NCBI GenBank assembly: GCA_918797485.1
Contig: CAKKNE010000003.1
Location: 5,022,001-5,086,000, forward strand
Origin: Pelagomonas calceolata
Taxonomy: Eukaryota
Direction of reading: 5' to 3'
Length of the DNA stretch: 64,000 nt
Part shown: in pieces, positions 550 through 62,810 of the stretch
Layout: each line of letters opens with the position of its first letter
Position numbering within the stretch: the first letter of the stretch is position 1
Notes under the pieces: model-generated
The model's input: the letters and a program-made list of their open reading frames with translations, nothing else
Databases searched by the model: none
Told to the model about the DNA's origin: nothing
Made by a program: the position numbers and the translations under genes

Positions 550-663
550 TCCGTGTGCAGTGTTTGGCACTCTTGGGTGCACAAGACTTGCGTCGTCAAG
601 GAGATTAGCAGTCCTTTTTGCCTTATCTGGACAACTGACTCGAGCTCCTGACTCGGACCTGAG

Positions 664-790
664 TGTACCATGGTACCGTAGGTACCGTAGGTACCGTAGG
701 TACTACTACTGCGGTACTGCGGTACTTGCTGGTACTGCGGTACCTACGGTACTAGTCTGGTACTGTACAAAGAGCTCGTACCGTGGTACC
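664..790. promoter_or_regulatory. GTAC array (GGTACCGTA-type units) upstream of the NSF-like gene
   Basis: gtaccatggtaccgtaggtaccgtaggtaccgtaggtac...gcggtactgcggtac...gtaccgtggtacc, 115-240 bp upstream of the ATG at 549. A regulatory role is not shown. Confidence 0.7.
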
Positions 791-1066
791 TTAGTTCCCC
801 TTGACTAAAAGAGGTTTCTCATGGGATACCCGCAGCAGCTCGTGAATACGTGAGGTTTGTGGCTAGTCAGCGCAGTTATCAGACAGACTCCCACGTATGT
901 GGGACGGAACCCGCCGCGGTTTCAAGTTCAGATCACGGCGCTTTGGCTCGTAGCAAGCCATGTTGCCGGCTCGCCGGTAGTCGATAAAACACACACCTCA
1001 TCCCAGTGCAACTCTAGAGGCTCCTCCGGCCGGCAGGCAGCCGCGCCCCCCATCATCCTCGTCCAC

Positions 1067-1462
1067 TCAGTTCGCCCGTGCGTTCATGAGGCTGGAAAAG
1101 CGCCGTCGCTGGTACCCCGCCCACTCGACGAAGTCGACTCGGGTTGCGACGACGCGCTCCCGCCAGACGTCCGACTCCGCGGCCTGCGGACGTCTCGTCT
1201 CGGAGTCGCTTACCCCGCGTGCGGTAGCGTGGTCGCAGAAAGCGTCGGCAAAGTGATCGAGATCGAGGATGCGTGCGACGCCGCGCTGCGTCTTCCGACG
1301 CGGCGCAGCCTTCTTGGGAGCGGACCGAGCATGCTTGCGCGCCCTGGCGCTCTCGAGGCTCAGGCGACGCTTCTCCTCCGAGAGAAACGCACTTTTGTGA
1401 GCCGCGATTCGTTCCGTTCGCACGCTCGCGTCCGCGTACAGCCTCTCCGAAACGTGTGACAT
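1067..1462 (-). CDS. hypothetical protein
   Basis: 131-aa ATG ORF with coding-like composition, divergent from the next gene across a GTAC array (1586-1606); no family recognised. Confidence 0.45.
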   Translation of the reverse strand: MSHVSERLYADASVRTERIAAHKSAFLSEEKRRLSLESARARKHARSAPKKAAPRRKTQRGVARILDLDHFADAFCDHATARGVSDSETRRPQAAESDVWRERVVATRVDFVEWAGYQRRRFSSLMNARAN

Positions 1463-1737
1463 TGTTGTTTTTAAAGGGGCACAGCGAGGGCTATCTTGTG
1501 GCGCTCTGCTTGGTGTGGTCGGAGGAGGATGCTTAAATACAAGGTAAACCTGCCGCGAGACTCGAGACAGCCTGCTATACCATTGTACCTCGGTACCGTG
1601 GTACCTAAGCCTGGTATCCTGTCGTGTACTGTAGGCACAATGGCTACAGGTCCTGCGTCAAAAGCAGCCGGGTACGAGCTTGACATGCATCCAGTAGAGA
1701 CTAAAAAATAATAACGCGAGGCGCTGCGTGGCTTAAG

Positions 1738-6535: not shown

Positions 6536-7520
6536 CGCCGAAATGACGTGGAGCCCATTTCGCTATTCGTCTACACCTTGTCGAGCGCACCGTTTGACGC
6601 CCGCGTTTACAATCAAACCTCATTGCACTACAAAACCCTTATGGTCATCGCATCGCCCGGGGGAAAAAAGCCTGCCCCCATCAGCCCTTGGGGCACGGAC
6701 GGCGGCGCGGCCCTTACGGGGCACCCAGGCAGCCGCACCGCCCACGCCGGCACGCTGGATAATCACCCGGCGTGCCGGCGTGGGAGCTACTGGTAGGCAT
6801 TACTGGTAGTAGGCAGAGAGATACTAGATAGCCCACGGGCAATGGGCATGCCGTTCCTCGCATGTATCGCACGACCGGGTCTGACTCGGAATCTGGCTCT
6901 GATGGGGAGGAGGAGGACGACACTTGATCTCCGCGGGATTTCTGAGCTCATGGTCCGACCGGGCGTGCGCGAGGGCCTCGCGAACGCGTCATGGCGGCGT
7001 TCGGCGCGGCGCGACATGTTGGGCAAGTAGGCGATTCATCCTCGGCTTCCTCGCAATTCAACGGGTCGACGGGCCTTCATTGGCGATGTTGACTCACCCC
7101 AGAAATTCAAGCTGCTTCCGATGGCAACTCTTCGGGTCTTCCGTCGGCGCAATGTCGTGAACGCGAGGGTGTTTTTCGCGACTCCCCCGCGGGCGCGGCG
7201 GCGGGCCGGCGGCCGGCTACGGAGATTCTCGCCGGCGGCGGCACTCGGGCACGACTCCACGGAGCGGCGGCGCGGCGGGATCCCGTATGCCTTGACGAGC
7301 TCTGGGTCGGGTCTCAAGCAAAGCGCCTCCGCGTCCGCGTTCAGCAGAATCAAGGTTGTGTGGCGGCGGTTCCCTTTTTTTTTCCCGCACATCGCTGCAC
7401 GACCTCTGCGACGAGTCTCCTGGGGCGGGGAGGGGTCCCGCAAGACCGCGCGCAAAACCCGTCGGTTAAGCTTAGTGCTTCACAGCGGACCCGCACGGCC
7501 ATTTGGCATCGGGATCGCCG

Positions 7521-8803
7521 CGTACGCTGTACCAGCGCGCTGCGCGTTCCTCGCCCCGGTTGTTACTTCCTCAGGGCGGCCAATGGGCCGCGTAACCAGC
7601 TTTTGGGCACCGCTCGTCGCGCTGGCGCCGCGCACTGCATAGGGCTTTCCAGCGCGATTTGGGCTTTTGGGGCCTCACGTCGCCGCGTCGCGTCGGCATT
7701 GGTAGGTTTTTGGACGCGAAGCTCATAGGTAGCATAGCCATGGCTGACCGGGCGGGCTTGGGCAGGCGACGCCGGAATCGCTCGCGGTAGACGCGTCGAG
7801 ACGGCCCGATCGCGGACCTGTTGCATTGACTAATACGCTATCCCTGGAGCCGCACGGCTCTTCGGCGTCGACGCACCCATACCGACGGCTGATCCCGCAC
7901 CTCTTTGGGATCTTCCGACTGCGGAAGCTCGTGGGCGCCTTCTTTGCGGTACCGCTCCCGAGGGCCGACACCGGCACCGGCGCGGACGGCCTCGTTATTG
8001 GAAGATTTTCGAACTGGAGAGTCGGTAGCATCACGGCGCCCTTTGGTGGTCGTGGCGGACCCTGTTGGCGGCGTTTATGTCGGGCTCGTGATGAGTTGTA
8101 ACCAGGAGCCGGCCGCCTTTCGTCTAGGTCACGCCCAGGCGCAATGTAATGTATTCATACTGGTCTATTACTCCGCCCGCCCTACTTGGGCGAAGGCTTT
8201 CGCGAGGGCTTGCGCTATGAGTCTCCCTAGAGGCCTCTAGACCATGCCCGGAGCCAACAGGTCCGCCGCGAGCTCCAATGGCCGCAGTGATGCTACCGAC
8301 TTGGCCGCGGACCCGCTGCGCCATCGTCGAGGCCGTCCGCGCCGGTGCCGGTGTCGGCCCTCGGGAGCCCCACTGAGGAGAAGGCTCCCATGACCTAACC
8401 CAATCAATACATGTCGGAGAGGTGCGGGATCGGCCGTCGGTATGGGTGCGTCGACGCCGAAGAGCCGTGCGGCTCCAGGGATAGCGTATTAGTCAATGCA
8501 ACAGGTCCGCGATCGGGCCGTCTCGACGCGTCTACCGCGAGCGATTCCGGCGTCGCCTGCCCAAGCCCGCCCGGTCAGCCATGGCTATGCTACCTATGAG
8601 CTTCGCGTCCAAAAACCTACCAATGCCGACGCGACGCGGCGACGTGAGGCCCCAAAAGCCCAAATCGCGCTGGAAAGCCCTATGCAGTGCGCGGCGCCAG
8701 CGCGACGAGCGATGCCCAAAAGCTGGTTACGCGGCCCAGTGGCCGCCCTGAGGAAGGGACAGCCGGGGCGAGGAACGCGCAGCGCGCTGGTATAGCGTAT
8801 GCG
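7521..8803. repeat. about 1.3-kb foldback (long inverted repeat)
   Basis: 7521-7904 is the near-identical reverse complement of 8418-8803; weaker inner arm matches 7955-7994/8327-8368 and about 8021-8070/8252-8300. Confidence 0.9.
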
Positions 8804-9820
8804 CCCTTTTTGATGCCAAGTGAGCCACTTAGACTTTAGGGGCGGATCGCAAAAAGAATTAATAGGCAAAACGGGTTTTTCCGATTATGGGACCCCCCCC
8901 ATAGATCCTAACATGGGAATGTCGGGAGCGCCATGCTTACATATTTGGGACGAGGCGCCGCCTCATCGATCCTCTCCCAGTAGCGAGCTCCCGACATTGA
9001 GAATAGTCTTCCTTCGTTAATCGGGCTACCTACTAGTAACCCACTAGAATCAGGCCCCGGCTGCTCACAGCTTTTACGGCTGCTTGCCGGCCCGTCTCTG
9101 TCAGCGGGCTCTGTCTGGCATCCACACATGACATATACCTGCCGCGGGCGATTTCAGAAATCAAGCGCGGCCCAAAATCGCCCAGGACAGCCATTTTGCG
9201 GAAGTACCGGTGCACAGCGATGCGGCACCGCGTCGGCCGACCTCGCGCGCTCTCACGCGACGCGCTCCGACCGACGCTCGGTTTTTGAGATGCCTACCGC
9301 GGCGCTGGAGGCATTTAGTGAGCCCTATTGCCCCGAACGCGGCCTCGGCCGGTAGTACCAGCGGCCGGCGACGGTCAACATAACGGCGCCACGATGCCAG
9401 GCGTGCGTTTCCAGCCACTGCGATCATATCGAAACCGCGTGGGATCATCGAAGACCGCTTTTGGTTCCGCACCCAAAACGCCAGAAAAAAACGTAGGCGT
9501 CTCGCGGCCGTAACTTTTCACCACCCGATCCGTTTGTTGCACCCTTGGGACCGAACCAGACTTATTGACGTACGCCTAAAGGATGGTGACCCCGCTCAGG
9601 GGTCTGGGGGCGCTCCTAGCGAAATCGGGTTTTAGTGTCCGCCCCGAACTTAGTACTAGTACGTGAGCCATGGCCTATGGTGCGGGACCGCTGTGGCTTG
9701 GCTAAATGGGCGTCTTGAGTACCCACGGACGAGCGGTGAGGAACCGCGGACTTGCCTATCGGACGGGGGACCGTGTCCGATGCTGCAGTACAGCTCCTAA
9801 CAGATAATCGGGCGGCTGTC

Positions 9821-10835: not shown

Positions 10836-10989
10836 AGCACGCCACGTACGAGAGTGTTGTACTTTAATTCCCTAGCAAACTGGATTACAAAGTAGCGTCG
10901 TTAGACACTCAATGTATAAACTCAATTTAGAGAGTGGGAGATACATATCTAGGGTAGGAACTTGAAGGGCTAGGGGGTTTCTCTCTCTA
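10836..10989 (+). repeat. family A copy carrying a CTTGAA insertion, followed by a GTAC array
   Basis: AGGAA[CTTGAA]GGGCTAG here versus AGGAAGGGCTAG at 62671; followed by tacggtaccgtaggtaccgtaggtaccgtacc. Confidence 0.85.
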
Positions 10990-11362
10990 CTACGGTACCG
11001 TAGGTACCGTAGGTACCGTACCGTGACTGCCGCGGCGGTGGGACACCAGTAGGGCCTGATTATTCCAAGCTCATGATAGTCCCTTATTCTGAACTCTCGC
11101 AGCGCAATGTGCCGAGATTTAGTACTATCTCTAGTGACTATTGTTGGGATGATTGGTCACACTAAGGCATGCCTGATTATCGATGAACAGTGGGATGGAA
11201 GGAGCCGATTTGACATCATCGAATTTCTGTTCAGCTTGAGCGTGTGCTTGATCGAACGCGTTTTGCACTGAAGAACCTACAGGAGGTACCTACGGTACCT
11301 ACGGTACCGTAGGTACAGCATGAGCATGACATTGTGCGCATGCTGATTGATTTCCGGCAGCC

Positions 11363-12800
11363 ATGACAGACGACGAGGAGCACGCGTCGCTGCTGAAGAC
11401 GAGGTCCGCCGAGGCCGCGCGGCTCGGGGCGCTCTACCACGAGACGCCGGAGGTGGCCAACCTGCGGCTGTGGTGGGGCCTCTGCTACGCCAACGCCATG
11501 GGGGTCTGCGGAATCGTCTTGGTCGCCCTCGGGTCGACGCTGAGCGCGCTCGCCGCCGACTGCGGGACGACGGAGACGGCCGTGGGCACGGTGTTCATCG
11601 CGCGCGGCATCGGCGCGATCACGGGCGCGCTCGGGTCCGCGCGGCTCTACGCGCCGCCGCGGCGCGGGAACGCGGTGATGGTCGTCGTGCTGTTGCTGCT
11701 GAGCGTCGTGCTCCTCTACATGCCCTTCGTCCGCGACGTCTGGGTGCTGCACGCCACGTGGTTTCTGCTCGGCGCGTGCACGGCGACGCTCGACACCGGG
11801 TGCCAAATCATGACGCGCAAGGTCCACGGCGTGCACGCGGGGCCCTGGCTCGGCGCGAACACCGTCTGCTTCGCGATCGCGGGCGCGCTCGTCCCGCTCA
11901 TCGAGATCGTCACGGGCGAGCTCTTCGCGCAGTACGCGACGCTCGCGCGCGGCCGCGCGGAGACGACGGCGCGTCGCGTCGATCGCGCGCCGCGAGCGGG
12001 ACGCGCCGCATCCACGGGGCGCTCCGGCGCAGGCGACCATTTCCGTGCTCAACGGCGCCGCGCTCTACGCGGCGCCGCACCCCGAGAGCCCCGACGTCCG
12101 CGCGCTCCTCCCGCCGCGCGTCGGCGTGCCGGGCGGCAAGGACGGACGGCACGCCCGGGGACCCTACCACCTCGAAATTATCTTCGGCGGCGCCGTCTTC
12201 TGGCTCATCGGCGGCGCGCGCCCGGGCGGTCGTAAATCGCCGCCGCCCCTTTCGACCGGACCGGTGCGCGCAGGTAAGGTCGACTGCACGTCGTACATCA
12301 GCACGTACGTGCGGCAGACGGGCGTCGTCGCGGCGTCCAAGGCGAGCCTCTCCGTCCTCGTGCTCTGGATCGCCATCACCGTCGGCCGCCTCGTGGGACT
12401 CCAGGACCAGATCAACCTGAAGAAACAGCCGACGCGCGCAATTTTCGCGCACCTCGCCGCGTGGCTCCTGACGGGCACGGTCGGCATGTTCGCGACGGCG
12501 GTCTTTCCCGGGCAACCCTGGGCCTTTTGGACCGGCGTCGCCCTCTACGGCCTCGGCAACGGGCCCTGCGTGGGCTACTGCTACGACCTCGTCAACCGCA
12601 TGACGGTCGCGACCGAGGAGGGCATGTCCATCGTCATGTTCGGCCTGAACTTCGGCGCCTCGCTAGTTCCCTACCTCACGACGGTGATCTGGGACTACAC
12701 GAGCTCCGGACCGGGCGTCCTCATCTGGGTCACCCTCCTCTCCATGTTCATCCCGATGCCGCTGCTCGTCGCCGCCGCGATGGTCGGCAAGGTCGACTAG
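11363..12800 (+). CDS. major facilitator superfamily transporter (MFSD4/FucP-like); GC-AG introns 11945-12032 and about 12214-12273
   Basis: About 12 hydrophobic segments; LGSTLSALA, VFIARGIGAITG, LDTGCQIM, WIAITVGRLVG, LYGLGNGP; removing intron 1 joins the two ORFs in frame. Confidence 0.8.
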
Positions 12801-13068
12801 GGGCGCTTTGGTAGGAGGGGCGAACTGGGGCCGTGGCCTGGTCACGTCGGGGCGGCCGCATATTTTTAAGTGAGTCCTTCGTTAAGTCTCCAGGCGAGTT
12901 TTTTTTCATATCTCGCTTTATTCGCCTGCCGCGGCGTGGGGAGGGGTTCCATGCCATACTAGTAGCTGGAGTGTCAAGCGGCGTGATGTGGAGCTCCGCC
13001 TCCTCCGTCCTCGGATTCTAATGTATTTATTTACCTGCCCCGCTGGCGGGCCGGGAGGTATTTATTCG

Positions 13069-13501
13069 AAGCTCCGGTTGGGTCACGGTATCCTGACTGA
13101 GCAGGGCGAAGGCTCATAGCTTGTTCCTTATTTTTTAGATCTTCCATATAGGCCTTACTGCCAGAAAAACCAGTAATCATTAATCAGCTCGGAGCCAGGC
13201 CTTCACCAACACGCCCGCGCACGCCGCGACGACTCACGCTTCTCCGACCGGCAGCAAGCTTACGTACACGCTCGCGGGGGATAGCTCCCCCGACACTTCC
13301 CCCAAAAGGACTTGATAGTAGAGAACCCGAACTCACCCTAGGGGGTCCCAAAACCCGAAATGATCGCTAGCGGCCAAACGCTGTCGACGTAGAAACCCGC
13401 GAGCTCAGGAGGCCCGGGGCTCGATCGCCAGTGATTTATCTTTAGCTTTGTCTTAGACTAGCGGCCTGTACTTAGATAGAGCAGGTAAGACACTAGCAAG
13501 C
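13069..13501 (+). mobile_element. stack of repeat fragments (family D 13069-13145, family C 13200-13305, family E 13375-13458, motif G 13458-13501) upstream of DBP4
   Basis: Each piece is the reverse complement of a piece in the 28963-29515 stack, in the same order relative to the gene. Confidence 0.75.
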
Positions 13502-13657
13502 ATAGTAGAGCAGCAAAAAAAACGCACCGGTGTGAATTTTTGCTACTGCATTGCGCGTTCTGCGCGGGGCGCAATTGATCGCTACGTGTATAGCTTAACG
13601 ATAAGTCAGCAAATCCAAAAAAAAAGGGCGATATAGACCAGGAGACGACAAAAGCAA

Positions 13658-15694
13658 ATGACGCGCTCGCCGCTGCCCGAGGCGGCGGCCGAGGTCGCGG
13701 CGCTCCGCCGCCGCATTGCCGAGTCGGCGCCGCGCCGCGGCTGGCGCCCGCCCGACGACGCCGCCGTGCGCTTCGCGACGCTGCCGCTGTCGGCGCGGAC
13801 GCTCGCGGGCCTCGCGGCCGGCGGCTTCGAGACGCTCAAGCCGATCCAGCGCGCGGCGATCCCGCACGCGCTCGCGGACCGCGACGTGCTCGGCGCGGCC
13901 CGCACGGGTTCGGGGAAGACGCTGGCGTTCCTGGTCCCGGCCGTCGAGGCGCTGTACCGCGAGCGGTGGGCGCGCGAGGACGGCCTGGGCGCGCTCGTCG
14001 TCTCGCCGACGCGCGAGCTCGCGCTGCAGATCTTCGGGGTGCTGCGCGTCGTCGGCGCGCGGCACGACTTCTCGGCGGGCCTGATCACCGGCGGTCGCAC
14101 GCGCGACTGGGCGGCGGAGCAGGCGCGCGTCGTCCGCGCGAGCCTCCTCGTGGCGACGCCCGGCCGCGCGCTCCAGCACCTCGAGGAGACGCCCGGCCTC
14201 GACGCGGGGCGCCTGCAGGCGCTCGTCGTCGACGAGGCCGACCGCGTGGTCGACCTCGGCTTCGCGCCGCAGCTCGACGCCATCGCGACGTACCTGCCGG
14301 CCGCGGGCGAGCGGCGGACGTGGCTCTTCTCGGCGACGCTCGCGGGCGTCGGCGGCGGCGGCGACGCGCGCCCGGGCGCGCGGCTCGCGCGGCTCCGCGC
14401 GCTCGCGGACGCGGCGACCGTCGAGTTCGTCGTGGCGCGCGACGACCGGGCGGCGCTCCTGCGCGCCGGCGCGCCCGCGGCGGCGGCGGCGGCGACCGCC
14501 GCGCCGACGCCGGCCGCGCTCGCGCAGCGCCTCGTCGTCTGCGCCCTCGAGGACAAGCTCGACCTCCTCTACGCGTTTGTCCGCGCGCACGTCGCGAGCA
14601 AGACGCTCGTGTTCGTGAGCACGTGCGCGCAGGCGCGGTTCCTCCTCGAGGCGCTCCGCGGCGCGCGGCCCGGCGCGCCGCTCGCCGCCCTCCACGGCAA
14701 GCAGAGCCAGGCGAAGCGCGTCGCCGTCTTCCGCGCGTTCGCGGCGCGCTCCGGCGGCGCCGTCCTCGTCGCGACCGACGTCGCGGCGCGCGGCCTCGAC
14801 GTCCCCGACGTCGACTGGGTCGTGCAGCTCGACGCGCCCGAGGACGCGGACGCGTACGTCCACCGCGTCGGCCGGGCGGCGCGGAACGGGCGGCGGGGCG
14901 ACGCGCTGCTCGTCGTCGCGCCGCACGAGCGCGCCCGCGTCGACGCGGCGCTCGCGGCGGCGGGGCTGCGCGTCGACGTCGTCCGGGCCGACCCCCGGCG
15001 CGCGCGTTCGGTCCGCGCGCACGTCGACGCGCTCGTCGCGTCGCGGCCCGAGGCGCGCGCGGCCGCCGTCCGGTGCTTCCGCGCCTACGTCCGCGCCGCG
15101 GCGCTCCACGCCGGCGCCGACGCGGCCGCGCTGCCGCTCGCCGCCTACGCGCGGTCGCTGGGCCTCCCGACGGCGCCGCGCGTCGCGCTCCCGCGGTCGC
15201 CGGCCGCCGCCGCGGACGCGCGCGAGCGCGCGCACGTCGCCAAGAACGCGAACCGCAAGCTCGCGCGCCTCAAGGCGCAGATTGCCGCCGCGAAGACGCG
15301 CGCGCCCGCGACGGCGGCGCGTGCCGGCGCCGCCGAAGACGACGGCCCGCTCGTGCGCGCGCGCGCCGGCGCCTCGGCCGCCGCCGCCGCCGCCCTCGCG
15401 CGCGCAGCCGCCGCGCCGCCGCCACCGCGCGCCCGCGCCAAGCGCCTGCGGCTCGACGCCGCGGGCACGTCGACGGCCGCCGCGCCGCCGACGCGCTTCG
15501 ACGACGACGGGCGTGCGGTCGCGCCCGCCGCGACGGCCTTCGCCGCTGCCGCCCCCCCGCGGACCGGCCCCGCCCTCGCGCACGCGAGCGACGAATTCGT
15601 CGCGCGCGTGCGAGAACGGCTCCGCCTCACCGCCGCGGGGGACCGGGCGGCCGAGCGGAACCGGCGCCAGGAGAAGAAGCGGCGCCGCCAGTGA
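13658..15694 (+). CDS. DBP4: DEAD-box RNA helicase DBP4/DDX10
   Basis: GAARTGSGKTLAFLVP, DGLGALVVSPTRELALQIF, DEAD, SAT, LHGKQSQAKR, ATDVAARGLD, YVHRVGRAAR, YARSLGLPTAP. Confidence 0.9.
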   Translation: MTRSPLPEAAAEVAALRRRIAESAPRRGWRPPDDAAVRFATLPLSARTLAGLAAGGFETLKPIQRAAIPHALADRDVLGAARTGSGKTLAFLVPAVEALYRERWAREDGLGALVVSPTRELALQIFGVLRVVGARHDFSAGLITGGRTRDWAAEQARVVRASLLVATPGRALQHLEETPGLDAGRLQALVVDEADRVVDLGFAPQLDAIATYLPAAGERRTWLFSATLAGVGGGGDARPGARLARLRALADAATVEFVVARDDRAALLRAGAPAAAAAATAAPTPAALAQRLVVCALEDKLDLLYAFVRAHVASKTLVFVSTCAQARFLLEALRGARPGAPLAALHGKQSQAKRVAVFRAFAARSGGAVLVATDVAARGLDVPDVDWVVQLDAPEDADAYVHRVGRAARNGRRGDALLVVAPHERARVDAALAAAGLRVDVVRADPRRARSVRAHVDALVASRPEARAAAVRCFRAYVRAAALHAGADAAALPLAAYARSLGLPTAPRVALPRSPAAAADARERAHVAKNANRKLARLKAQIAAAKTRAPATAARAGAAEDDGPLVRARAGASAAAAAALARAAAAPPPPRARAKRLRLDAAGTSTAAAPPTRFDDDGRAVAPAATAFAAAAPPRTGPALAHASDEFVARVRERLRLTAAGDRAAERNRRQEKKRRRQ

Positions 15695-16208
15695 TGTGCT
15701 AGAAGTAAAAGAAAGATATGCCAGCGGAGGGTCTCTGCCGCGGGCCCTTTAGGAAGCCCGGGATATTAGATCGCTAACTTGAAGCGGCTGTTACCTCCAG
15801 CGTCCACGACAGCGGAGAAATCGAATTCAGAATTTAACTATTCTGCCAGACAGTGGGTTAAAAAGAAGATGTATTTTTTTGTAAAAGGTTGCTTTGCTTA
15901 GAGCTAGGCCACCTAGCCGCGGAGCCGACGCCTCCCTGCGTGACCGCACGCCCGCCCAAGGTTACTACACCAGCCTGAGAATAGTCAAATCGGCCTCGAG
16001 TTTAAGTCTCCTCGAGTCCTCGCTGTGTGCCAGTAATGTATTCATCCGGTCGTGGTCCGCACTGGGCGCCGAGGACCCATGTCGTCGCCAGCGGACGCAC
16101 CCAGCAGGGTGGCGTTCTTCGGCAAGGATAGGGCGACTCTTCCAGCGAGGGCATGGAGCTAGGAGTATGGTGGATCCGAGTCGTTACGCACCGCGAGGAG
16201 GCGGGCCC

Positions 16209-20236: not shown

Positions 20237-20925
20237 TGTCTGAGAGCCCTTGCGATGATGCCGCGCGCGCCCAAGGACCTGGTCTTGTTTGCTTGCCTAG
20301 TGTCTTACAAGCCGCTAGCCCGTTTTTATTTTGAGAGTTTCGTCGCGGTCTTCCTCCTTTGGGCCAGTTCGAGGTGTGTCGGCCTCAAGGGCAGCCTTCT
20401 TAGGACGCGTGCGGGTTGCGTCACGGTAAGCGCAAGACAGTCAGAGTTTGCCACACGGTGTGTCCTTGTACCGGCGCTGGGCTCGAGGAGTACCCGCCCC
20501 GGGCTTGGCTCAGAGGCTCCTGAGGTTGCGTAGGTCAGTAGGATAGGATAGGAAGGGAGTTGCGGTCTAAGACTCGGAATAAGGAACTAGCTCCTAAGAG
20601 CGCTTCTCCCTGCTCAGTCAGGATACCGTGACCCAACCGGAGCTTCGAAATGGCAATAAGATAGCGATATAAAGGATTCTCAATCTCTTAGCCTGAGAGC
20701 TAGGGAAGAGCTAGGCCGCCTAGCCACCTGGCGAAACGAGCTCCGACGCGGGGCCCGTTTATCTACTTCTAGTATTCCAAGTTATAAATCCCCCATTTCC
20801 AAAGAAAGGCCAGCAGCACACATCCGAGGGCGGAGACGATGGCGACGGGACGCTAGATTGACTAAAAACGCCGTGGTTCGCCTGGACGCGCCCGCTGTAA
20901 AATGGACTGGCAAAATGCTCCTTGT

Positions 20926-31179: not shown

Positions 31180-32159
31180 TGCGATGCATAGGGAAATAGA
31201 GTGTGTAGCTCCGGACTTCCCCGGCAGCGTAGTCACGGTGTAGTCGTCTAACGAAATAGTTTCTCCCATGTTTGATGGGGTATGTGACGGGGAATTGCGT
31301 CCGTCAATAAAAGGTGACTCAGGATGATAATAGTTAGGAGTGAGAGGCGACTTCCCCCTACTAAGGGGATATCGGAGTACCCTAGGATGGGAAGTAGCCT
31401 AGGCGGGTAATACAAGTACGGGTTGTGCTTGGATACGTCTCAGTTGAACCTTGGGATCCTACTAGATGTGTATTTCCATTGCACTCCCCCATTGTCGTGA
31501 TCGTGATCAGATTGCGATAATCATGAAATCGCGGCAAGGAGGATAACATTTAAGTTTAACATTTCAATAAGGTGGATCATCCTGATGGTACCGCAGTACC
31601 GACAGTTATTCAATTAGTAGTTGGTCATTTAGTGCTTGTTCATTTAGTGGTGTGGTTGTTTTGTGCGTTTAGTTGTTTTTGTTTTAGGCGACTTCCCCCT
31701 ACTAAGGGGATATCGGAGTACCCTAGGATGGGAAGTAGCCTAGGCGGGTAATACAAGTACGGGTTGTGCTTGGATACGTCTCAGTTGAACCTTGGGATCC
31801 TACTAGATGTGTATTTCCATTGCACTCCCCCATTGTCGTGATCGTGATCAGATTGCGATAATCATGAAATCGCGGCAAGGAGGATAACATTTAAGTTTAA
31901 CATTTCAATAAGGTGGATCATCCTGATGGTACCGCAGTACCGACAGTTATTCAGTGTGGTTGGTCAGTGCTTGTTCATTTAGTGGTGTGGTTGTTTTGTG
32001 CGTTTAGTTGTTTTTGTTTTAGGCGACTTCCCCCTACTAAGGGGATATCGGAGTACCCTAGGATGGGAAGTAGCCTAGGCGGGTAATACAAGTACGGGTT
32101 GTGCTTGGATACGTCTCAGTTGAACCTTGGGATCCTACTAGATGTGTATTTCCATTGCA
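31180..32159 (-). mobile_element. Copia-like LTR retrotransposon remnant: one complete ~300-bp LTR plus two tandem ~340-bp duplications; 5-bp TSD GCCCA
   Basis: Units start at 31345, 31686 and 32021. On the minus strand a PPT (AATGGGGGAG) directly precedes TGCAATGGAAATA and the LTR ends TATTTCCCTATGCA. GCCCA flanks both sides (31175-31179, 32160-32164). A related LTR start lies at 62279-62347. Confidence 0.75.
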
Positions 32160-36971: not shown

Positions 36972-37451
36972 GACTCGGAAAAAAAGAGCCTGAGAATCCC
37001 GCCGGCCCTCAGGCTCGGTTTGGAGCGCCCTCAGGCTATACAAGTTACTAGCCTGAGTATTTCGAGTCATATAAATTAAATAGATGCTAGTAAAAATTCA
37101 GTTAAGGAACTTGAAGCCTGACCCTGAGCCGGAGGAATATCCGAGTCCTAAATAAAAACCGTAGCCGCGGCGTCACGGTACCAGTGACCGTCAGTGACTC
37201 AGGCTAGCCTACCTGAGTACTACTAGTAGAGTGCTACTAACTTGAAACAAATACTTATCACGTTATCGCGGTAAATACATAAATATTTCAAGTTTGTTCG
37301 AGGATTCAATGAGGAAGGAATGATATCCTAGTAATAAAAAGACATAGCCTGAGTACGTCAACTTGAAGCCTGTACTAGTAGCCTAGGATGATACCCAGCC
37401 GGCGCTGCTACTAGTAAAAATGGAGGTGAGGAAACGGCAAAGCAACTTGAA
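36972..37451. other. hotspot of XY-C-rc(XY)-G-XY 8-mers (18 counted) in a convergent spacer
   Basis: Starts at 36972, 36987, 37008, 37030, 37050, 37108, 37140, 37164, 37172, 37198, 37221, 37239, 37287, 37346, 37360, 37373, 37409, 37444. Confidence 0.9.
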
Positions 37452-37566
37452 GTTTCAATCTCCTGACTCGACGAATCAGAAATGGATTCTAGTAGAGGCT
37501 TTATTTATTATCCGATTCGAGTGTGTACATCACAGGAGGCAGCCGCCAGACGCGCCATCCATCGGC

Positions 37567-40959: not shown

Positions 40960-41082
40960 CTGCTATGATATGGCCACGGCCCCTTTTCCACATATAAATC
41001 TCCCAAATTTTATCTTAGCTTCACTATCCTAGTCTCATTTATCTTGGTTAGATACCCGGATAGAATAGGCCTAGTGAATACG
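40960..41082 (+). mobile_element. family B element, internally deleted copy (CTGCTATGATATGGCCA...CCTAGTGAATACG) inside a GTAC array
   Basis: Both termini are shared with the 60217-60707 copy; GTAC on the left, GTAGGTAC on the right. Confidence 0.8.
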
Positions 41083-41299
41083 GTAGGTACCTACGGTACC
41101 GTAGGTACCATACCGCAGTAGGTAACGTACCGTAGGTACGGTACCGGTAACCCCCTACTGCGGTACAACAGGCCGAAAATCGCGGTAAAAGCCACGGCCA
41201 CTCCGCTGCGCGGCCCAGTGTCTATCGCGGTTGGGGTTAAAACGCCTCGCCAGCTTGAGCCGTTCGACCACGCACCGACGACAGCGCGCGCGCAGGACG

Positions 41300-46805: not shown

Positions 46806-47780
46806 GTATTCACTAGGCCTACTCTATCCGGGTATTTAACCAAGATAAGTGAGACTAGGATAGTGAAGCTAAGATAAAATTTTGGGAGATTTATAAGTGG
46901 AAAAGAGGCCGTTGCCACAACGGGCGCCAACCCCAGGGACCCCGGACCACGCGCCCCCGCGCCAAAACAACCAAGGGAGGGTGGGAGGGCCAAAAATTCT
47001 TGCTCCTTTGTCCTGCGCTCGCACAATCGGAGCGCTGTTGGACACGAGCAAGTATAAGAAAGTATCTTGCAGCGAGCCACTAGATGTGACGATATTGCTG
47101 CCAAGATACCAAAACATAGCTGACACTGGCAGACCTGAGTCAGCCTTACATAGGTTCGGGACAGCCCTTGGGTCTCTTATTAAAGCTCCTTCTGTAAACA
47201 GAGGGCTGTTGACCCCTCTCATCACGGGCGCCGCGGGATTACAACGATCCACTGATTGGATTCAAAGGTTGAACAAGAAGTTCCGGGGAAAACCCCACCT
47301 TTAGGGGAATTACCATAAGCCCCTTTGGCAGTGCCTGAGCTAAATTGGTAAGACAATTTAGCTCGCCAACAAATCATACAGATTTGCGACAGGTCGAACA
47401 GTCAGTACCACGGGGTCTGGCAACTAGGGGAAAGAAAATTTCCGGAAATTTCGGAAATTTCCACCCCTCTAGATTTCATTTCCTGGAAATTGCTCAACTA
47501 TAGGCCCGGGGTCACGGTGGGAGGGCCAAAAATTCTTGCTCCTTAGTCCTGCGCTCTCACAATCGGAGCGCTATGGGACACGAGCAAGTATAAGGAGGTA
47601 TCTTGTAGCGAGCCACTAGGTGTGACGATATTGCTACCGTGACCAAGATACCAATCATAGCTGACAGACCAGAGTCAGCCTTACAAAGGTTCGGGACAGC
47701 CCCTGGGGTTCTCATTAAAGCTCCTCCTGTAAACAGAGGGTTGTTGAACCCTCTCATCACGGGCCGGGCGCCGCGGGATC
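46806..47780 (-). mobile_element. family B copy with a duplicated ~255-bp internal segment (46981-47238 / 47517-47779)
   Basis: TATTCACTAGGCCTACTCTATCCGGG end as at 60217; the two direct copies differ by substitutions and 5-6-bp indels. Confidence 0.8.
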
Positions 47781-47844
47781 TGAAAACTTGAAAAAGGAAC
47801 TAGCTCCTAAGACTCGGAGCCTTCAAGTTCTCCCTGCTAGTAGG

Positions 47845-48999: not shown

Positions 49000-49645
49000 T
49001 AGAGAGAGAGAAACCCTCTAGCCCTATGTATCTCCCACTCTAAATTTGAGTCTATACACTGGGTGTCTAACGGCGCTACGGTGTAAACCAATTTATAATA
49101 AAACACTCTCGTAGTTGGTTTGGCCCAGCCTCTGGCTGGTGAGCTAGGACCCTGCTATAGCCTGAGCCTGACTCGGAGAGGCTGAGCCTCGTCTGATATT
49201 ATTTTCCATGCGCTTTCAGATGGTTCGACATCCGTGGCTGTTTCGCCATCAGTCATGTTATGCACAGAGCCTGTATCATCGTCTGATGACTCATCGTCTG
49301 ACGACTCAGACAGAAGATTCGGCAGGGAATTGATTGAGAAGATTGATTCATCATCTGATTCATCCGATTCGACGTATGCACCATATGCCTGAAGCGTGGC
49401 CTCATTGGGTATGTCTGGATGCACTGTTTGTCCAACCATGAGGGTGTCACGGTTGCCTGGGGCGCGTGGTCCGGGGGCCCTGGGGTTGGCGCCCGTTGTG
49501 GCAACGGCCTTTTCCACTTATAAATCTCCCAAATTTTATCTTAGCTTCACTATCCTAGTCTCATTTATCCTAGTTAAATACCCGGATAGAATAGGGCGTG
49601 TGAATATACGGTACGGTATTTACGGTACCTACGGTACCGTAGGTA
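49000..49645. mobile_element. back-to-back family A (49000-49157) and family B (49460-49610) copies plus a GTAC array in a divergent promoter
   Basis: Family A (CT)n end faces the ATG at 48855, family B TACG end faces the ATG at 49771; an acidic ORF fragment lies between them. Confidence 0.75.
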
Positions 49646-51829: not shown

Positions 51830-52055
51830 TGTTGCTGTTGACGCTTGAATCAGGCCCGTGCGTTTTAGTTTTGCGCTATTTTTTAGGTTCCGCAAGCTGT
51901 GCAGCCAGCGCTGCCGTGGCACCTGAGATTGCCTGCGGTACCATGGTAGTATTGGTACCTACCGTAGGTACCGTAGGTACGGGACTCGGCTTCTTACCAG
52001 TAGCTACTGCGGTACCTACGGTACCTACTGCGGTAGCCTAGCGCGCAGTTGGGAT

Positions 52056-52486
52056 AGCTATAGTCAATTTGGGTTTTGCGCGCGATTCCTGGCGCACCTA
52101 GAAGGGGGGCTAGAGGGGGGGGGGGGCACGCGCTAGGGGGGGGTATCGGGGGAGCTATCCCCCGCGAGCGTGTACGTAAGCTTGCTGCCGGTCGTAGAAG
52201 CGTGCGTCGTCGTCGCCGTGCCCGAGCCCGGGCGGCGCGTTGGTGAAGTCCGGGTTACCGCCGACGAGCCGGGGGCCGTCGATCTTGATCCGGGCGTACT
52301 CGCGCGCCGTCTTGATGCCCCAGCGACGGTAAAGGCGGTTCTTGAGCAGGGCGGCCGTGTGGTCCTGCGAGGTCGCGCCGTCCTCGACCCAGGTCCGAGC
52401 GGCGGTCGCGTCCGCGGTAGTCGCCACCATATTCCCGCTGGAAGGGTGCGCACCACCGGGGCGCTCGAAGACGACGTCGACCCACT
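52056..52486 (-). mobile_element. longest family C copy; encodes a C-terminus resembling RLE-type (CRE-like) non-LTR retrotransposon proteins
   Basis: ADATAARTWVEDGATSQDHTAALLKNRLYRRWGIKTAREYARIKIDG...ARGG-stop, then a short 3'UTR abutting the GTAC array at 51935-52036. Confidence 0.6.
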
Positions 52487-54856: not shown

Positions 54857-57191
54857 CTTGCACGGGATAGCCGATTCCCGCGTGTGTTTTGATCGACAGG
54901 ACTTGCTCTACAGGTTATTAGAGGGGGGGGAGACCGTAGGTACCTCGAGAGTAGGCATCCTAGAGTCTGTGGCTAAATTCATCGTAGCTCCTCGGCCCTG
55001 CCCGAGGTACTAGTGTGCGCGCCGGCGCCCGTCGGATCTGTGTGTTCGGTGTTCGGGTTTCTTACGCGAGCTCCACGCCGCGCGGAGCTCGTCGGCGAGC
55101 GGCGCCGACCTGTGTTTTTGGCGGTGAGCCTCGTGCGCGAACCCCGGTGCCTCCACGCCATCGACGAGACCTCGCGACATTCCCGCCGCGTCGATGGTGC
55201 ACGAGCTCTCGCGGACGGCGCCCCACGCCATGCTGCATGGCCACCTTATCGTACTCGTCACGGTGGCGACTTCCAACATAAATTTCACGTCTATCGACGG
55301 CGTCGTACTCGAATCGACGATAAAAAACATCAGAAAAATCATTTGACGAATAAATTTGGACCAAAATCCGAACCGGTGTACTCTAGTGAACAAGGTAAAT
55401 CAATGGATTTGGAGAAGTATGACCTGTATGAAGTATGAAGGTCCTTATAACAAATCAAATACCTGCCCCACGAAATTATCTCAACAGTTATCGGAGTATC
55501 TGGTGTGAGTTCTTGCTCTAATTCATCCGTGTGGGAATATCCAAAGTCCTCGTAAAGTTTGTTACGATAATTCCTAACGTTTGCAAGCCACACCAGAACC
55601 GTACTCCGTACTTCTTTAAGCGTTTCAGCAGAGATTGGATCTGTACATTTGACCCAGGAAGGCAGGGTAGGCTGGGTAGCTTCGACTTCGCGAGGTAATC
55701 TATTTAGGTTTTCTCTAGTTCTCTTCTTCTTAGAGCGTCAAAGTTGCACTTCAGTTTCACTAATGTACCGCATGCGGTACATTAGTACCAAGATCTCATA
55801 TCGTCCGAGTCCGTTCTGCCCGTCCTCCAATGGGGAGCGAAACCCCAAGGCCAACTCTGAGGACGATGCTGTCGGGGCCCCAAGACGGTGAGGCCAAGAC
55901 CTCATGCGTCGTTCCGCCACCCCACGGCGCCAAAGCGCCAAGCCCCCCAATGGGACGCGGGTGTCGGCCCGCGGTCGACTTCTATATTGAAGTTTTGATC
56001 CGTGTGCCTGGCGATGAGTCAGTTCGGCAATGAGCCAGTCTGAGGAGATACCGCCCCCGGGGCGCGGCTTCCAGAACTCCGCGCTCGGAAATCGTGGGCT
56101 AGCGGCCTGTACTTCAGGTAAGACACTAGGCATCCCTATAATAATATATTATATAGAGGAAGCGCTTAGCTCTACCGGGGGGGTTTATAATTGTACCCAG
56201 GTACATGTGCCCTCCCCTTCACCTCGCCTTATGGGGCCTTATGGGGCCCAGTCAGGGTTGTACATTACACAGGCGTCTATACGTACCCCCGCCCGCGCCC
56301 CAAAGCCCTGGGTTTGAGCGCTCGGGACGTTTTGGCCGACCGCGAGCGCCCCACGGCGGTGCGTTGCGGGCCACTTTTCGCACGAGAATCTGCTCATTTC
56401 GGGCGTATCGAGGGTGCAAGAGCGTCGTCACTGACCTCATGACCCACGCCCATGGGCTGGTGAGATTGCCCGCGGCCAGGATTACCCGTGAGACATTCAA
56501 CTGTTCGAACCCATGCACCGAACGCGGTAAAATGGGTGCCGAATGCAAAGGAGATCGACTTATTGGCGACCCATGCATTGTAAGTGAGCGAGTGATGCCT
56601 CGAGTCCGGAGCGACACTAAATTCCAGCCGAGACCGCGATCCGAATGGGTTATGACCCATAGCACTTCGGGACCGACCGCGACCAGCAAAACAAAGCGAA
56701 GCCGTCGGCCGCTAACCGTCACGCTGCGCAGGCACCGGCTCTGGACCAGGCACAAGGAGCACGCAAAGCCCGGAGATATACGGACGCGATAAACGTCGGC
56801 TTGGAGGGAGTCGAGCCCAGGCCCCAGGGAGAGCAGATTTGGGGGCACATTTGTAGCTCGCGACGCAGGCCGAATAAGTGGCTACCAGTGCAAGGTAAGT
56901 TGGCCAGTGGCCGTCCGAGGTAGCCCCACGTGGCTGCTGCACCAGCCGTTGCGCCGGCCGCGCGCCGTGCGCTTAACGCTAACCTGGGTACAATAACCAA
57001 CTTATTACCCAGTAGCAAGCTCTCAGGCTGGCCTCTAATTGCTCTCACACGAAGTCCCTTTACCAACGCACTAGCCGCTGGAACTGATACATTGGAGCCG
57101 AGCGCCGAGCCGGGCTACTTTACCGCACCTCGTCTGACTCAGTCCAAAAGAGAGCCAAAGATCACAGTGAGCGGAGGATGCGACAGGGGTG

Positions 57192-60117: not shown

Positions 60118-60216
60118 TTCAGGCGCAGGCGGATAGCGTGCAATGCGCCAGCCTCCCTGCGTGCGGCCCCGCTGCAGTACCTTGTGCTTTTGTACCGTAG
60201 GAGGTACCGTAGGTAC

Positions 60217-60707
60217 CGTATTCACTAGGCCTACTCTATCCGGGTATTTAACCAAGATAAGTGAGACTAGGATAGTGAAGCTAAGATAAAAATTTGGGAG
60301 ATTTATAAGTGGAAAAGAGGCCGTTGCCACAACGGGCACCAACCCCCGGGGACCCCGGACCACGCGCCCCCGCGCCAAAACAAACCAAGGGAGGTGTGGC
60401 ACTCCCTAACTTAGCCAGCATCCGCGCCATGTCCTCATATTCGACGCGAATCAAGACACGTCTCAAATCAAGCGTATCAGCACACGGCCTAAGTTTCTCA
60501 CTGGTCTCACCAAACACTTTGTAAGCTATCGCATGTTGCATATGGCTTTTCTCCGTCATCCAGTCGATAACGTCCGCCCATCTAGCATCAAGTTTTGCGC
60601 TCCTCACTAATCTTAAGAATTGGACTTGACTTGCAGCAGGCACATCAGGACTAAAGGGCATGTTCATAGTGGCACTGTCCACAAGAGCCTTGGCCATATC
60701 ATAGCAG
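60217..60707 (-). mobile_element. family B element, 491 bp, flanked by GTAC on both sides
   Basis: + strand: GTAC|CGTATTCACTAGG...TGGCCATATCATAGCAG|GTAC; no terminal inverted repeat beyond C...G. Confidence 0.8.
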
Positions 60708-60799
60708 GTACCGTAGGTAGGTGCCGTGGTGCTCTTGCCTGTGCAAGCGCGCACTGGGCTGGCAGTGAATTTATCATTCGATGCCACACTCCCTACTCC

Positions 60800-62045
60800 A
60801 TGAGGCTCTTACGAGTGCTCGTCTTGGTGCAAATGGGAGAAGGTCTGATCCAAGGTACGCCAGCCGGCGCGGTGGCTGAGCCGTCGCAGGCTGGCGACGA
60901 GTTGTCGCCTGAGGATGCGCTTCTCTGTGCTCCAGCGCGAAGGAATTTGTCGGTTAGCACTGGCATCCTAAAGATGGCACTATATACCTACAGCTTTGGC
61001 AATTACCGCCACGAAATCTCGCAATATCGCCCGTGGGATGATTTCCACGGTCAGGACTCGCATGGAAATTAAGGAGGGGAGTTGCCTTCAACGGCAGGTT
61101 CTCTCAAAATAATGCGATTTCGTTCGTCCAATGTGACGGAGTATCCACTAGGTGTTGCTATTTCGCACAGGCTGGGACCATCGGTACGTCTTCTGCGACA
61201 CAAGTATCACGCAGAAAATGGTCGCGGACGGATGGATTCAGTGTCTGGTGCCTCCTGGCTACCTCCCGCGGGCCACATTCCAAGTCCATCGCACACGCAA
61301 CGTCAGTGCAGGCTGGGACCTGACCAAGTTTTTCAAATTTGGGCACGTGGCCGCGGTCCTTCGACCCTTTGACTACCTCCTTCACATAGACTTCAGTTTC
61401 ATTGCGACACGTAACAAGTATTTCTACTTTCTACCGCGTTTTGCCGATGTCGAAGCACTCATCCGCACGAAGCCAGAAGTAGAGCTCATCGCACTCAGGC
61501 ACCGTGAGAGGGCTCTCGTTCGCAGCGAGTGGCAAGTAACAACAAAAAACAAAATGGAATTCCAGCATCTAATCTGCCAGTTTGGGCAGGCAATGAGGGC
61601 CAAATTTGGTAGCGAGGCGAGCACTGGCGTCAACCGGTTCTTGTTTCTTAACAACCTTTGGCTAACGCAGGTAGTGGATGTAACACCACTGTTTCTCATG
61701 GGCTTATTTGTCCGCAAGGTCCATAATGTGCCAAAGCTTGATGTGATTTTTGCTGATACAGTCCGCACCCTTGTATCATTTGGCTTGAAACGAGATCAGA
61801 ACGTCTTTCCGCTTGCTCTCTGGAACAGATATGGAAACATGACTTCTATCAAGGTATTAATGTGCGGCAGGAACATTTCAACTGCAGTTTGCCACCCCGC
61901 ACGGAACCCCCCCGCATCGTCGACAATTAGAGATTTTGGCCGCCCCCTCGCCCTCACAGCCCGTTCAGCATGTAATCACACCGGTGAGCACAAGGCCTAC
62001 GACAAAGTGCTCGTCTACGACCCGGGACCCACGCGTATGTCGTGA
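60800..62045 (+). CDS. DUF616-like glycosyltransferase, low GC; intron about 61050-61170
   Basis: ALYTYSFGNYRHEI, FFKFGH, YLLHIDFS, LIALRHRERALVRSE, KRDQNVFPLALW. Confidence 0.6.
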
Positions 62046-62810
62046 CGAAGAGCTTTGCAAGAATTGCGTCGATGTTGGCTCAAGCTGAGCCAGCGCCTCC
62101 CCGAAGCGGCAGAAATATGGCACCGCTCAGCATCGACCTCTGGCTGCGACATCGATTCGGCCACCTTTCACAGAAACTCGTCGATGGCCCGCCCGTGGGA
62201 AACGCATCGGGGAACCAAATGGGAATCGCATTCCAGCGATTGAAATGGACCGGGTGTTGCTGGCGTGCTCGATAGTAGTGCAATGGAAATACACGTCTAG
62301 TAGGATTCCAATGTTCAACTGAGACGTATCCAAGCACACCCGTACTACTAAAAGCTGGTACGCCGAGAGTGTTGTATACTCGAGAATGTATCTCATTGTG
62401 GCTCAACTTGAACAGTGTAACAATTAAATTCCTAGCCTGAGATGGATAGTCCGGGGCCTATGCGTCTAGTGGACTCCGAGTCTTGGGAGGCCAGTAGCCT
62501 GAGGCCGGTAGCACGCATGTGATGCTTGTGGCCACCAATGTCTAACCAGCCTAGGGCTGATAGGCCTGACTGCGAGAGTGTTTTATAGTGAACAGTTGTT
62601 ACACCGTAGTGCTTTTGACACTCGATGTATAGACTCAAATATTAGAGAGTGGGAGATACATATCTAGGGTAGGAAGGGCTAGTAGGTTTCTCTCTCTAGT
62701 ACCTACGGTACCACCTACGGTACCTATACTGCGGTAGGGAGGAGGAATGCGCCGGAGCCTTCACAGTACTTGGAGCGCCACACGCGGCATGAGCCGGCAG
62801 CGTCTGCTTG

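What the first reader, a model, noticed from the sequence alone, without database searches (positions are those of the whole stretch)
650..62503. A rule-governed 8-mer vocabulary, XY-C-revcomp(XY)-G-XY, written into intergenic DNA as precise +6-bp insertions
Seen: apparently unrelated over-represented words all follow one formula: AA-C-TT-G-AA, AG-C-CT-G-AG, GA-C-TC-G-GA, AC-C-GT-G-AC, CA-C-TG-G-CA, TA-C-TA-G-TA, AT-C-AT-G-AT, CC-C-GG-G-CC and their reverse complements. AACTTGAA/TTCAAGTT alone occurs 19 times by my count, all non-coding (921, 3451, 3464, 3586, 10959, 15776, 35039, 35208, 37108, 37239, 37287, 37360, 37444, 44780, 47785, 47822, 59083, 59307, 62405). AGCCTGAG/CTCAGGCT occurs about 17 times. 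Inference: each is a 2-bp TSD (XY...XY) bridged by retained terminal bases C and G and palindromic nucleotides from hairpin opening, i.e. an unusually uniform excision footprint of a 2-bp-TSD, C...G-ended DNA transposon. Established: flank-hairpin footprints occur with hAT and CACTA-type elements but are normally heterogeneous. I know of no description of a fixed footprint dominating intergenic sequence; an unknown templated repair or insertion mechanism is the alternative.
Basis: partly seen in the sequence, partly recalled or inferred. Interest (0 to 1): 0.95.

Follow-up and report, generated by a model that had tools for sequence, protein, structure and literature searches.

The report
Fixed six-base hairpin scars in alga
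The DNA between genes of this marine alga is peppered with six-base insertions that all follow one exact formula and still differ between wild strains; they are likely the scars left when a jumping gene, not yet found, cuts itself out through DNA hairpins, which would make them a major and readable source of new mutations.

Summary
The pattern is real. XY-C-rc(XY)-G-XY occurs 100 times in 24.8 kb of non-coding window DNA against 9.5±3.0 in shuffles, and 797 times against 52 expected in 158 kb that adds metagenome loci of this pelagophyte, likely Pelagomonas calceolata. The words are insertions: 35 of 51 clean 6-bp indels obey the rule, the short state is the majority at 26 of 28 multi-copy sites, and wild alleles lack some. 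Best mechanism (inferred): both flanks are sealed as hairpins with one C at the tip, opened 2 nt past it and joined by the two palindromic dinucleotides, which always match because XY is duplicated. The model predicted a +3 by-product at self-complementary XY; 10 of 22 three-base indels fit it. The hairpin maker is likely a 2-bp-TSD, C…G-ended transposon, but no such element or transposase turned up in 472 kb; a Spo11-like break is the rival. Ten literature searches found no description. This scan noted analogous 7-bp arrays in fungi (unchecked AI notes).

The parts
650..62503 (.). Span of the rule words: 100 XY-C-rc(XY)-G-XY 8-mers in non-coding DNA, about 90 in excess of chance, about 4 per kb
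36972..37451 (.). Densest cluster: 18 rule words in the 650-nt spacer 36917-37566 between two convergent genes; polymorphic in wild populations
37239..37246 (.). AACTTGAA site; one metagenome holds contigs of 58 and 64 nt over 37211-37274, and a 6-nt depth dip falls in this bin (site assignment inferred from lengths and depth)
   Evidence: tables 2 and 8
37320..37324 (.). +3 product AT-G-AT; three wild runs lack 3 nt here
   Evidence: table 4
10959..10966 (.). AACTTGAA in one copy of a repeat family; 13 homologous copies have AA only, 0 carry the word, 3 are uninformative
13082..13089 (.). GTCACGGT, one inherited insertion shared with the copy at 20625; 5 other copies are empty
20625..20632 (.). 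ACCGTGAC, same event as 13082
31232..31239 (.). GTCACGGT; two homologous copies have GT only
47124..47131 (.). CACTGGCA in the first copy of a 260-bp direct repeat; the second copy has CA
47636..47643 (.). ACCGTGAC in the second copy of the same repeat; the first copy is 6 nt shorter here and has one substitution
47811..47829 (.). Two adjacent insertions (GACTCGGA, TTCAAGTT) where sister copies read GA and TT (read by eye from the alignment)
665..775 (.). Array of a second scar class at TA sites (TA-CCGTAGG-TA, TA-CTGCGG-TA, TA-CCATGG-TA)
41077..41165 (.). TA-class array; others lie at 10990-11027, 11285-11315, 35496-35526, 49615-49645, 51940-52035, 60192-60218, 62700-62735

Best explanation
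Each 8-mer is a six-base insertion at an ordinary dinucleotide, and is likely the excision scar of a cut-and-paste transposon that duplicates 2 bp and ends in C…G. Shown: XY becomes XY-C-rc(XY)-G-XY, at nearly any XY, in non-coding DNA, often again at or beside an older scar. Inferred steps: (1) the element inserts with a 2-bp staggered cut, giving XY[C…G]XY. (2) On excision the non-transferred strand is nicked one base inside each end, and that 3'-OH attacks the other strand at the exact junction, so each flank becomes a hairpin with one unpaired C at the tip. (3) A host Artemis/SNM1-type nuclease opens each hairpin 2 nt 3' of the tip, leaving the 3' overhangs XY-C-rc(XY) and rc(XY)-C-XY. (4) The last two bases of these overhangs are complementary for every XY because the two flanks are a duplication; they anneal, 3 nt are filled on each side and ligated. 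(5) For self-complementary XY the overhangs can instead pair over their whole length around a C:C mismatch, giving XY-C-XY or XY-G-XY (+3). The scar is uniform because the duplication length (2) equals the opening distance (+2). The best family guess is CMC/EnSpm.
For: Enrichment. Clean indel lengths after leaving out TA-array contexts: 3 bp 17, 4 bp 11, 5 bp 12, 6 bp 48, 7 bp 7. 35 of 51 six-base indels obey the rule, covering 7 of the 10 strand-merged word classes. Short state is the majority at 26 of 28 sites with at least 2 informative copies. Enumeration of 256 contexts: only opening at +2 with 2-bp annealing works in 256 of 256; other registers work in at most 64. Products with shorter palindromes are at background (466/486, 135/136, 143/136). 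Predicted +3 product: 10 of 22 three-base indels, 10 of the 13 with a duplication of 2 bp or more, p 2e-5 at an assumed chance rate of 0.2; ATCAT/ATGAT 348 vs 268 and TACTA/TAGTA 341 vs 286 after removing rule words, while the A/T-middle controls are at or below expectation. Flanking bases are not fixed (C 31%, G 28%, T 22%, A 19% at -1), so C and G do not come from the target. Weak symmetric target bias at ±7 fits a dimeric enzyme. Artemis opens hairpins mainly at +2 (PMC2175297, passages). Flank hairpins are made by hAT, Transib, RAG and MULE enzymes (PMC5499845, passages). CMC elements with CAC…GTG ends and 2-bp TSDs exist (PMC6004678, passages). P. calceolata has Ku, X-family polymerases and an SNM1/Artemis-fold protein in its annotation table. 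A second fixed scar class at TA keeps other terminal bases, which suggests that tip bases depend on the element.
Against: No element with a 2-bp TSD and convincing C…G inverted ends was found: the 17 C-starting candidates are interior pieces of other repeats or weak 13-14 of 16 matches. No transposase among 183 ORFs from the loci or 30 window ORFs scanned against Pfam, nor among 36 scanned against PHROGs. No allele with a full element at a scar site among 11 large-insertion candidates. The published gene table shows one Tc1-like transposase and no CACTA/EnSpm term in the 14,639 rows held of 16,667 genes; that study masked repeats. Thousands of scars with so few visible elements need a very high turnover. 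The deficit of CG and GC words is not shown to be diverted into +3 products: by word counts CG-[C/G]-CG is no more enriched than CG-[A/T]-CG. Two of the ten +3 events could be trinucleotide slippage and two lie in TA arrays. A nick one base inside the element followed by a flank hairpin is not described in the papers I read.
Confidence: 0.62

Rival explanations
1. Same hairpin repair, no transposon. A Spo11/TopoVI-type enzyme breaks DNA with 2-nt 5' overhangs, fill-in duplicates XY, one dC is added opposite the protein-linked end (Rev1-like; recalled), and the 3'-OH attacks the 5' phosphotyrosine to seal a hairpin that is then opened at +2 and joined.
For: SPO11 breaks have 2-nt 5' overhangs with covalent 5' links, and SPO11 can reseal nicks (PMC11922745, passages). 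P. calceolata encodes SPO11 (PMC9481584, passage). It would explain the even use of XY, local hot spots (276 gaps of 30 nt or less vs 102 expected) and the missing element.
Against: Resealing after a double-strand break is unclear in that paper, and I found no report of such hairpins. Scar density is as high in low-GC, centromere-like loci (5.15 per kb) as elsewhere (3.4-5.2 per kb), although that paper reads those regions as recombination-poor. It does not explain the TA class with CCG/CC bases.
Confidence: 0.15
2. A transposon makes plain staggered cuts leaving a 1-nt 3' overhang (mariner-like), and a polymerase-theta-like templated insertion adds rc(XY) without any covalent hairpin.
For: Mariner-type cuts inside the element leave end bases in footprints (PMC4561436, passages). 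A POLQ-like helicase is annotated.
Against: Adding rc(XY) directly after C needs a zero-loop fold-back or a G at a fixed flank position; flanks are not fixed. The simple products XY-CG-XY and XY-C-XY are at or near background for XY other than CG, GC and TA (466 vs 486; 2221 vs 2009).
Confidence: 0.08
3. The words are selected functional motifs or remnants of one repeat family, and short alleles are deletions.
For: They are confined to non-coding DNA and depleted inside long coding regions (6 vs 15.7 expected in 76 kb).
Against: 14 unrelated words are used at near-equal rates per dinucleotide; flanks are unrelated; the word is the minority state at 26 of 28 multi-copy sites; nested double insertions exist.
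Confidence: 0.03
4. Assembly or sequencing artefact.
For: The window is one assembly; several loci show long inverted duplications that look like amplification chimeras.
Against: The same words occur in independently assembled metagenome contigs, and another DNA run matches the window's cluster with no listed difference.
Confidence: 0.01

Closest known systems
Ac/Ds (hAT) excision footprints in plants, S. cerevisiae and Candida albicans (PMC5873905, passages)
   Same: Flank hairpins, palindromic P nucleotides, microhomology-guided end joining.
   Different: hAT palindromes are centred on the complement of the flank base and are heterogeneous (28 footprint types among 128 revertants at one site). 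Here the centre is an invariant C that is not from the flank, and one product dominates at any site.
V(D)J coding joints; RAG/Transib/MULE nick-hairpin chemistry with Artemis opening (PMC2175297, PMC5499845, passages)
   Same: Hairpin on the flank, opening mainly 2 nt 3' of the tip, P nucleotides used as terminal homology.
   Different: Most coding joints are trimmed and varied; here both P dinucleotides are kept because the duplicated target makes them complementary, and one extra base sits at each tip.
Tc1/mariner and Stowaway footprints (PMC4561436, passages)
   Same: 2-bp duplication kept; terminal bases of the element left at the donor site.
   Different: Those are TA-specific and lack an inverted copy of the target; here 14 of 16 dinucleotides are used evenly and rc(XY) lies in the middle.
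CMC (CACTA/Mirage/Chapaev) elements with CAC…GTG ends and 2-bp TSD (PMC6004678, passages)
   Same: Duplication length and terminal C…G match what the scar implies.
   Different: No such element or transposase was found here; I saw no paper giving the cleavage chemistry or footprints of 2-bp-TSD CMC elements.
7-bp T-N-A palindromic scar arrays in smut-related fungi
   Same: Rule-governed insertions across non-coding DNA read as hairpin excision scars.
   Different: Other kingdom, 7-bp unit centred on T-N-A; here a 2-bp duplication at any dinucleotide with invariant C and G, plus population polymorphism and a tested by-product.

Membership tests
Excision footprint of a flank-hairpin DNA transposon | Insertion relative to the empty site with the target duplicated | tested here: met
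   35 of 51 six-base indels; 26 of 28 sites derived
Excision footprint of a flank-hairpin DNA transposon | Palindromic nucleotides templated by the flank and joined by microhomology | tested here: met
   Matrix; enumeration; +3 by-product
Excision footprint of a flank-hairpin DNA transposon | An allele or copy with the full element between the same duplicates | tested here: inconclusive
   None among 11 large-insertion candidates in 472 kb; whole genome not held
CMC/EnSpm (CACTA, Mirage, Chapaev) | 2-4-bp TSD | tested here: met
   2-bp duplication in the scar; this is read from the scar, not from an element
CMC/EnSpm (CACTA, Mirage, Chapaev) | Terminal inverted repeats beginning CAC (or similar C-ended motif) | tested here: inconclusive
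   Only the first base (C) can be read from the scar; no convincing 2-bp-TSD element found
CMC/EnSpm (CACTA, Mirage, Chapaev) | TnpD/Transposase_21-type DDE transposase | tested here: inconclusive
   No hit in 213 ORFs scanned against Pfam; no CACTA/EnSpm term in the part of the published gene table held
hAT (Ac/Ds-type) footprint | Palindrome centred on the complement of the flank base; 8-bp TSD | tested here: not met
   Centre is always C with free flanks; duplication is 2 bp
Tc1/mariner footprint | TA-only target, no inverted target copy | tested here: not met
   14 dinucleotides used at 3.9-7.1 per 1000
Any transposase family | Nick one base inside the element and flank hairpin in vitro | not testable with these tools
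   Needs the enzyme

The most novel reading that the evidence does not exclude
A globally abundant picoalga carries a very active, low-copy cut-and-paste element (or a Spo11-like host enzyme) with an undescribed hybrid chemistry: a mariner-like nick inside the end followed by a RAG/hAT-like flank hairpin. Its deterministic repair has written on the order of ten thousand identical-rule scars into intergenic DNA and keeps doing so. The scars would give the cleavage position of 2-bp-TSD CMC elements, an in-vivo readout of +2 hairpin opening outside vertebrates, and homoplasy-poor, polarised markers for ocean populations.
Probability: 0.5. Interest if true: 0.9.

Novelty: new variant of a known kind. 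Interest (0 to 1): 0.8.

Why it matters
Excision footprints are known as mixed products at single experimental sites. Here one sequence-predictable product makes up about 2% of non-coding DNA (about 90 excess scars of 6 bp in 24.8 kb) and supplies 8 single and 2-3 double events against 172 non-ORF substitutions in 20 partly overlapping allele pairs. Extrapolating 3.4-5.2 per kb to the 11% intergenic share published for P. calceolata gives roughly 12,000-19,000 scars; this is rough, because the loci were picked by a TA-array motif. The rule 'duplication length equals opening distance gives a fixed scar' is testable for any hairpin-forming element, and it fixes where the unknown enzyme must nick.

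Tried and rejected
Whole-genome counts were not possible: no genome is held and the metagenome records cannot be searched by handle. The first contig lay (19.9 kb, 4 runs) showed only 12 of 223 indel rows, mostly from high-copy repeats, so it gave no site-level result. Viral collection: 0 hits for the TA-array motif, 0 for the virus-like element's end, no relative of its capsid. hAT geometry with a C-XY-G target was rejected because flanks are free. Other P-nucleotide lengths, a two-base tip (CA…TG 2 vs 2.0; CC…GG 5 vs 2.2) and a 3-bp analogue showed no clear class. Candidate source elements examined and rejected: window 7481-9695 (CAC…GTG but 4-bp flanking repeat, no second copy), L009 10094-11312 (13 of 16 match, single), L045 virus-like element (4-bp TSD, A…T ends), three MITE-like elements with 8-bp TSD, the TGCTAG-ended family (no TSD), repeat family D as a CCGTA-ended element (its conserved end is at GTATTCAC). 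Window ORF 60284-60808 gave no family or atlas hit. The 5-residue difference in the helicase is not a rule insertion. My first count of +3 events (11) was wrong; the recount is 10, and the two p-values for 11 are void. Papers: passages read in PMC5499845, PMC2175297, PMC6004678, PMC5873905, PMC4561436, PMC11922745, PMC9481584; for the last also part 1 of 2 of supplement 2 and term searches in supplement 4 (cut when stored; supplement 5 unreadable). Two papers were not held, so TSD lengths of other superfamilies, introner details and Rev1 are recalled. 'Not in print' rests on ten full-text searches of an open-access library; all but the seven papers named were seen as listings only.
Full report
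Organism. The window's DEAD-box helicase is 53-62% identical to proteins of Chrysophaeum and Aureococcus, lies on a 5.39-Mb contig, and runs of the organism assemble to 28-71 Mb, several at 32-35 Mb; the DNA is also held by marine metagenomes (20 runs of 11 studies hold the stretch). Low-GC loci fetched later carry tubulin, kinesin, MCM, RPB2 and APC genes, as described for the 52%-GC regions of Pelagomonas calceolata (PMC9481584, passages and supplement 2). I infer P. calceolata. No whole genome was available.

Observation. In 24,817 nt of hand-annotated non-coding DNA the 16 words XY-C-rc(XY)-G-XY occur 100 times against 10.5 (Markov order 3) and 9.46±3.05 (200 shuffles, maximum 18). Genic DNA has 98 against 83, nearly all CG and GC words. 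Changing the middle or the last dinucleotide removes the signal.

Independent DNA. After removing redundancy (471,683 nt with the window) and open frames of 120 codons or more, 158,329 nt hold 797 rule words against 52 expected. Fourteen dinucleotides give 3.9-7.1 excess words per 1000; CG and GC give 1.0-1.1. The reversed control is raised (141 vs 35), and 84 of these overlap a rule word as tandem doubles. Inside long Pfam-supported frames the words are depleted: 6 vs 15.7 in 76,194 nt.

They are insertions. All-against-all alignment (alignments above 72% GC left out; 11 of 12 matches required on each flank) gave a spike at 6 bp: 51 distinct events, 35 obeying the rule exactly. Leaving out TA-array contexts the counts are 17, 11, 12, 48 and 7 for 3, 4, 5, 6 and 7 bp. 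At 28 sites with two or more informative homologous copies, the short state is the majority at 26 and absent at 2. Twelve-base doubles exist, and one repeat copy carries three scars in a row where five sister copies have none. Scars cluster: 276 gaps of 30 nt or less against 102 expected. One-mismatch neighbours show an excess about half that of exact words, so many scars are young.

They segregate in the sea. Laying contigs of three metagenomes and one run of the organism on 36880-37620 showed the organism run without listed differences, one wild contig 38 nt shorter over the stretch, 33 nt missing across 37139-37201 in two runs, contigs of 58 and 64 nt over 37211-37274 in one sample, and 3 nt missing at 37320 in three runs (12 of 29 indel rows were shown, so two 6-nt losses are read from depth and length). 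In 20 partly overlapping allele pairs, 8 single and 2-3 double rule events stand against 172 non-ORF substitutions, with private scars on both sides.

Mechanism (inferred). rc(XY) directly after XY-C is what a covalent hairpin with a one-base C loop gives when opened. Opening both flank hairpins 2 nt past the tip leaves overhangs whose last two bases are rc(XY) and XY. Enumeration shows that this register anneals in 256 of 256 contexts and every other in at most 64. Artemis opens mainly at +2 (PMC2175297), and an SNM1/Artemis-fold gene, Ku and X-family polymerases are annotated in P. calceolata. Before looking I predicted that self-complementary XY could pair over all five bases around a C:C mismatch and give XY-[C/G]-XY. 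Ten of 22 clean 3-bp indels fit, 10 of the 13 with a duplication, with the caveats that two may be slippage and two lie in TA arrays. Word counts support this for AT and TA but not for CG and GC. The flanks are free, so the C and G are not target bases, which rules out hAT geometry (compare PMC5873905).

What makes the hairpin. A 2-bp duplication with C…G ends matches some CMC elements (PMC6004678). I searched for the element by inverted-repeat scans, empty-site comparisons and repeat clustering and for a transposase in 213 ORFs by Pfam and 36 by PHROGs: none. These ORFs were 77 plus 106 of those listed from the loci and 30 from the window. The sample is about 1.5% of the genome. The published table lists one Tc1-like transposase in the rows held. 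The main rival keeps the hairpin steps but starts from a Spo11/TopoVI break with 2-nt 5' overhangs (PMC11922745). Equal density in centromere-like loci and the separate TA class speak against it, weakly.

Second class. TA becomes TA-CCGTAGG-TA or its reverse complement (+9) at six or more unrelated sites, and also TA-CCGCAG-TA, TA-CCATGG-TA (+8) and TA-CCG-TA (+5). The window has 23 copies of the +9 form. It can be read as end bases CCG, the inverted target and GG, the same design with longer, unequal tips, but I could not resolve this; the symmetric +8 and +10 forms are absent or single.

Novelty. Footprints, P nucleotides and TSD-derived microhomology are each known. A fixed scar at any dinucleotide covering about 2% of non-coding DNA was not found in ten literature searches, nor in the passages of the genome paper that I read. 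This scan's notes describe analogous 7-bp arrays in fungi, which I did not test.

Verdict. Pattern and insertion polarity: shown. Hairpin, +2 opening and 2-bp annealing: about 0.85. Transposon origin with this chemistry: about 0.62. CMC identity: about 0.4. New variant of a known kind; interest 0.8.

Noticed in passing
L045:3726-12206: 8.5-kb element with long inverted ends (28-bp palindromic tip) and a 4-bp TSD, inserted into a rule scar that is empty in L111. It encodes a double-jelly-roll capsid-like protein (atlas score 0.97-0.98) and, by motif reading, a packaging ATPase, a cysteine protease and a minor capsid; no integrase or polymerase was seen. It looks like a small endogenous polinton-like virus; no relative in the viral collection.
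   Followed up: partly
window 665-775, 41077-41165, 51940-52035 and others: Self-renewing arrays of TA-specific scars (+5, +8, +9), mostly in G-TA-C context. The +8 forms each differ from a symmetric TA-CCGCGG-TA, which has 0 copies, by C-to-T changes at CG.
   Followed up: partly
window 7481-9695 and 7500-8822: 2.2-kb stretch with CACAGCGG…CCGCTGTG ends and a 4-bp flanking repeat, enclosing a 495-bp inverted repeat (93%); possibly a Chapaev-like or foldback element, single copy in the data.
   Followed up: partly
L037:2663-3027, L009:5968-6273, L054:483-655: Three short inverted-repeat elements with 8-bp TSDs (hAT-like MITEs or introner-like).
   Followed up: no
window 13191-13303, 21513-21718, 29141-29369, 30924-31073, 52120-52357: Repeat family ending in a GC-rich hairpin about 11 nt before CTAG, like a Helitron 3' end (motif recalled).
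   Followed up: no
window 46980-47239 and 47516-47779: 260-bp direct repeat with TG…CA-like ends and short inverted termini, possibly solo LTRs; each copy has gained its own rule insertion.
   Followed up: partly
L019:9436-9610; window 13460-13500, 20295-20320, 30885-30910, 56100-56135: Family with TGC(C)TAGTGTCTTAC ends and no detectable TSD.
   Followed up: partly
window 31345-32159: 341-bp tandem repeat (2.4 copies, 98%) with related copies at 62277-62346 and in L009, L026, L079.
   Followed up: no
window 27089-27162: tRNA-like sequence whose acceptor stem does not pair; possible pseudogene (read by eye, not run through a tRNA finder).
   Followed up: no
window 14350-14380 (helicase 13658-15694): The window's helicase has 5 extra residues relative to three wild alleles.
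   Followed up: partly
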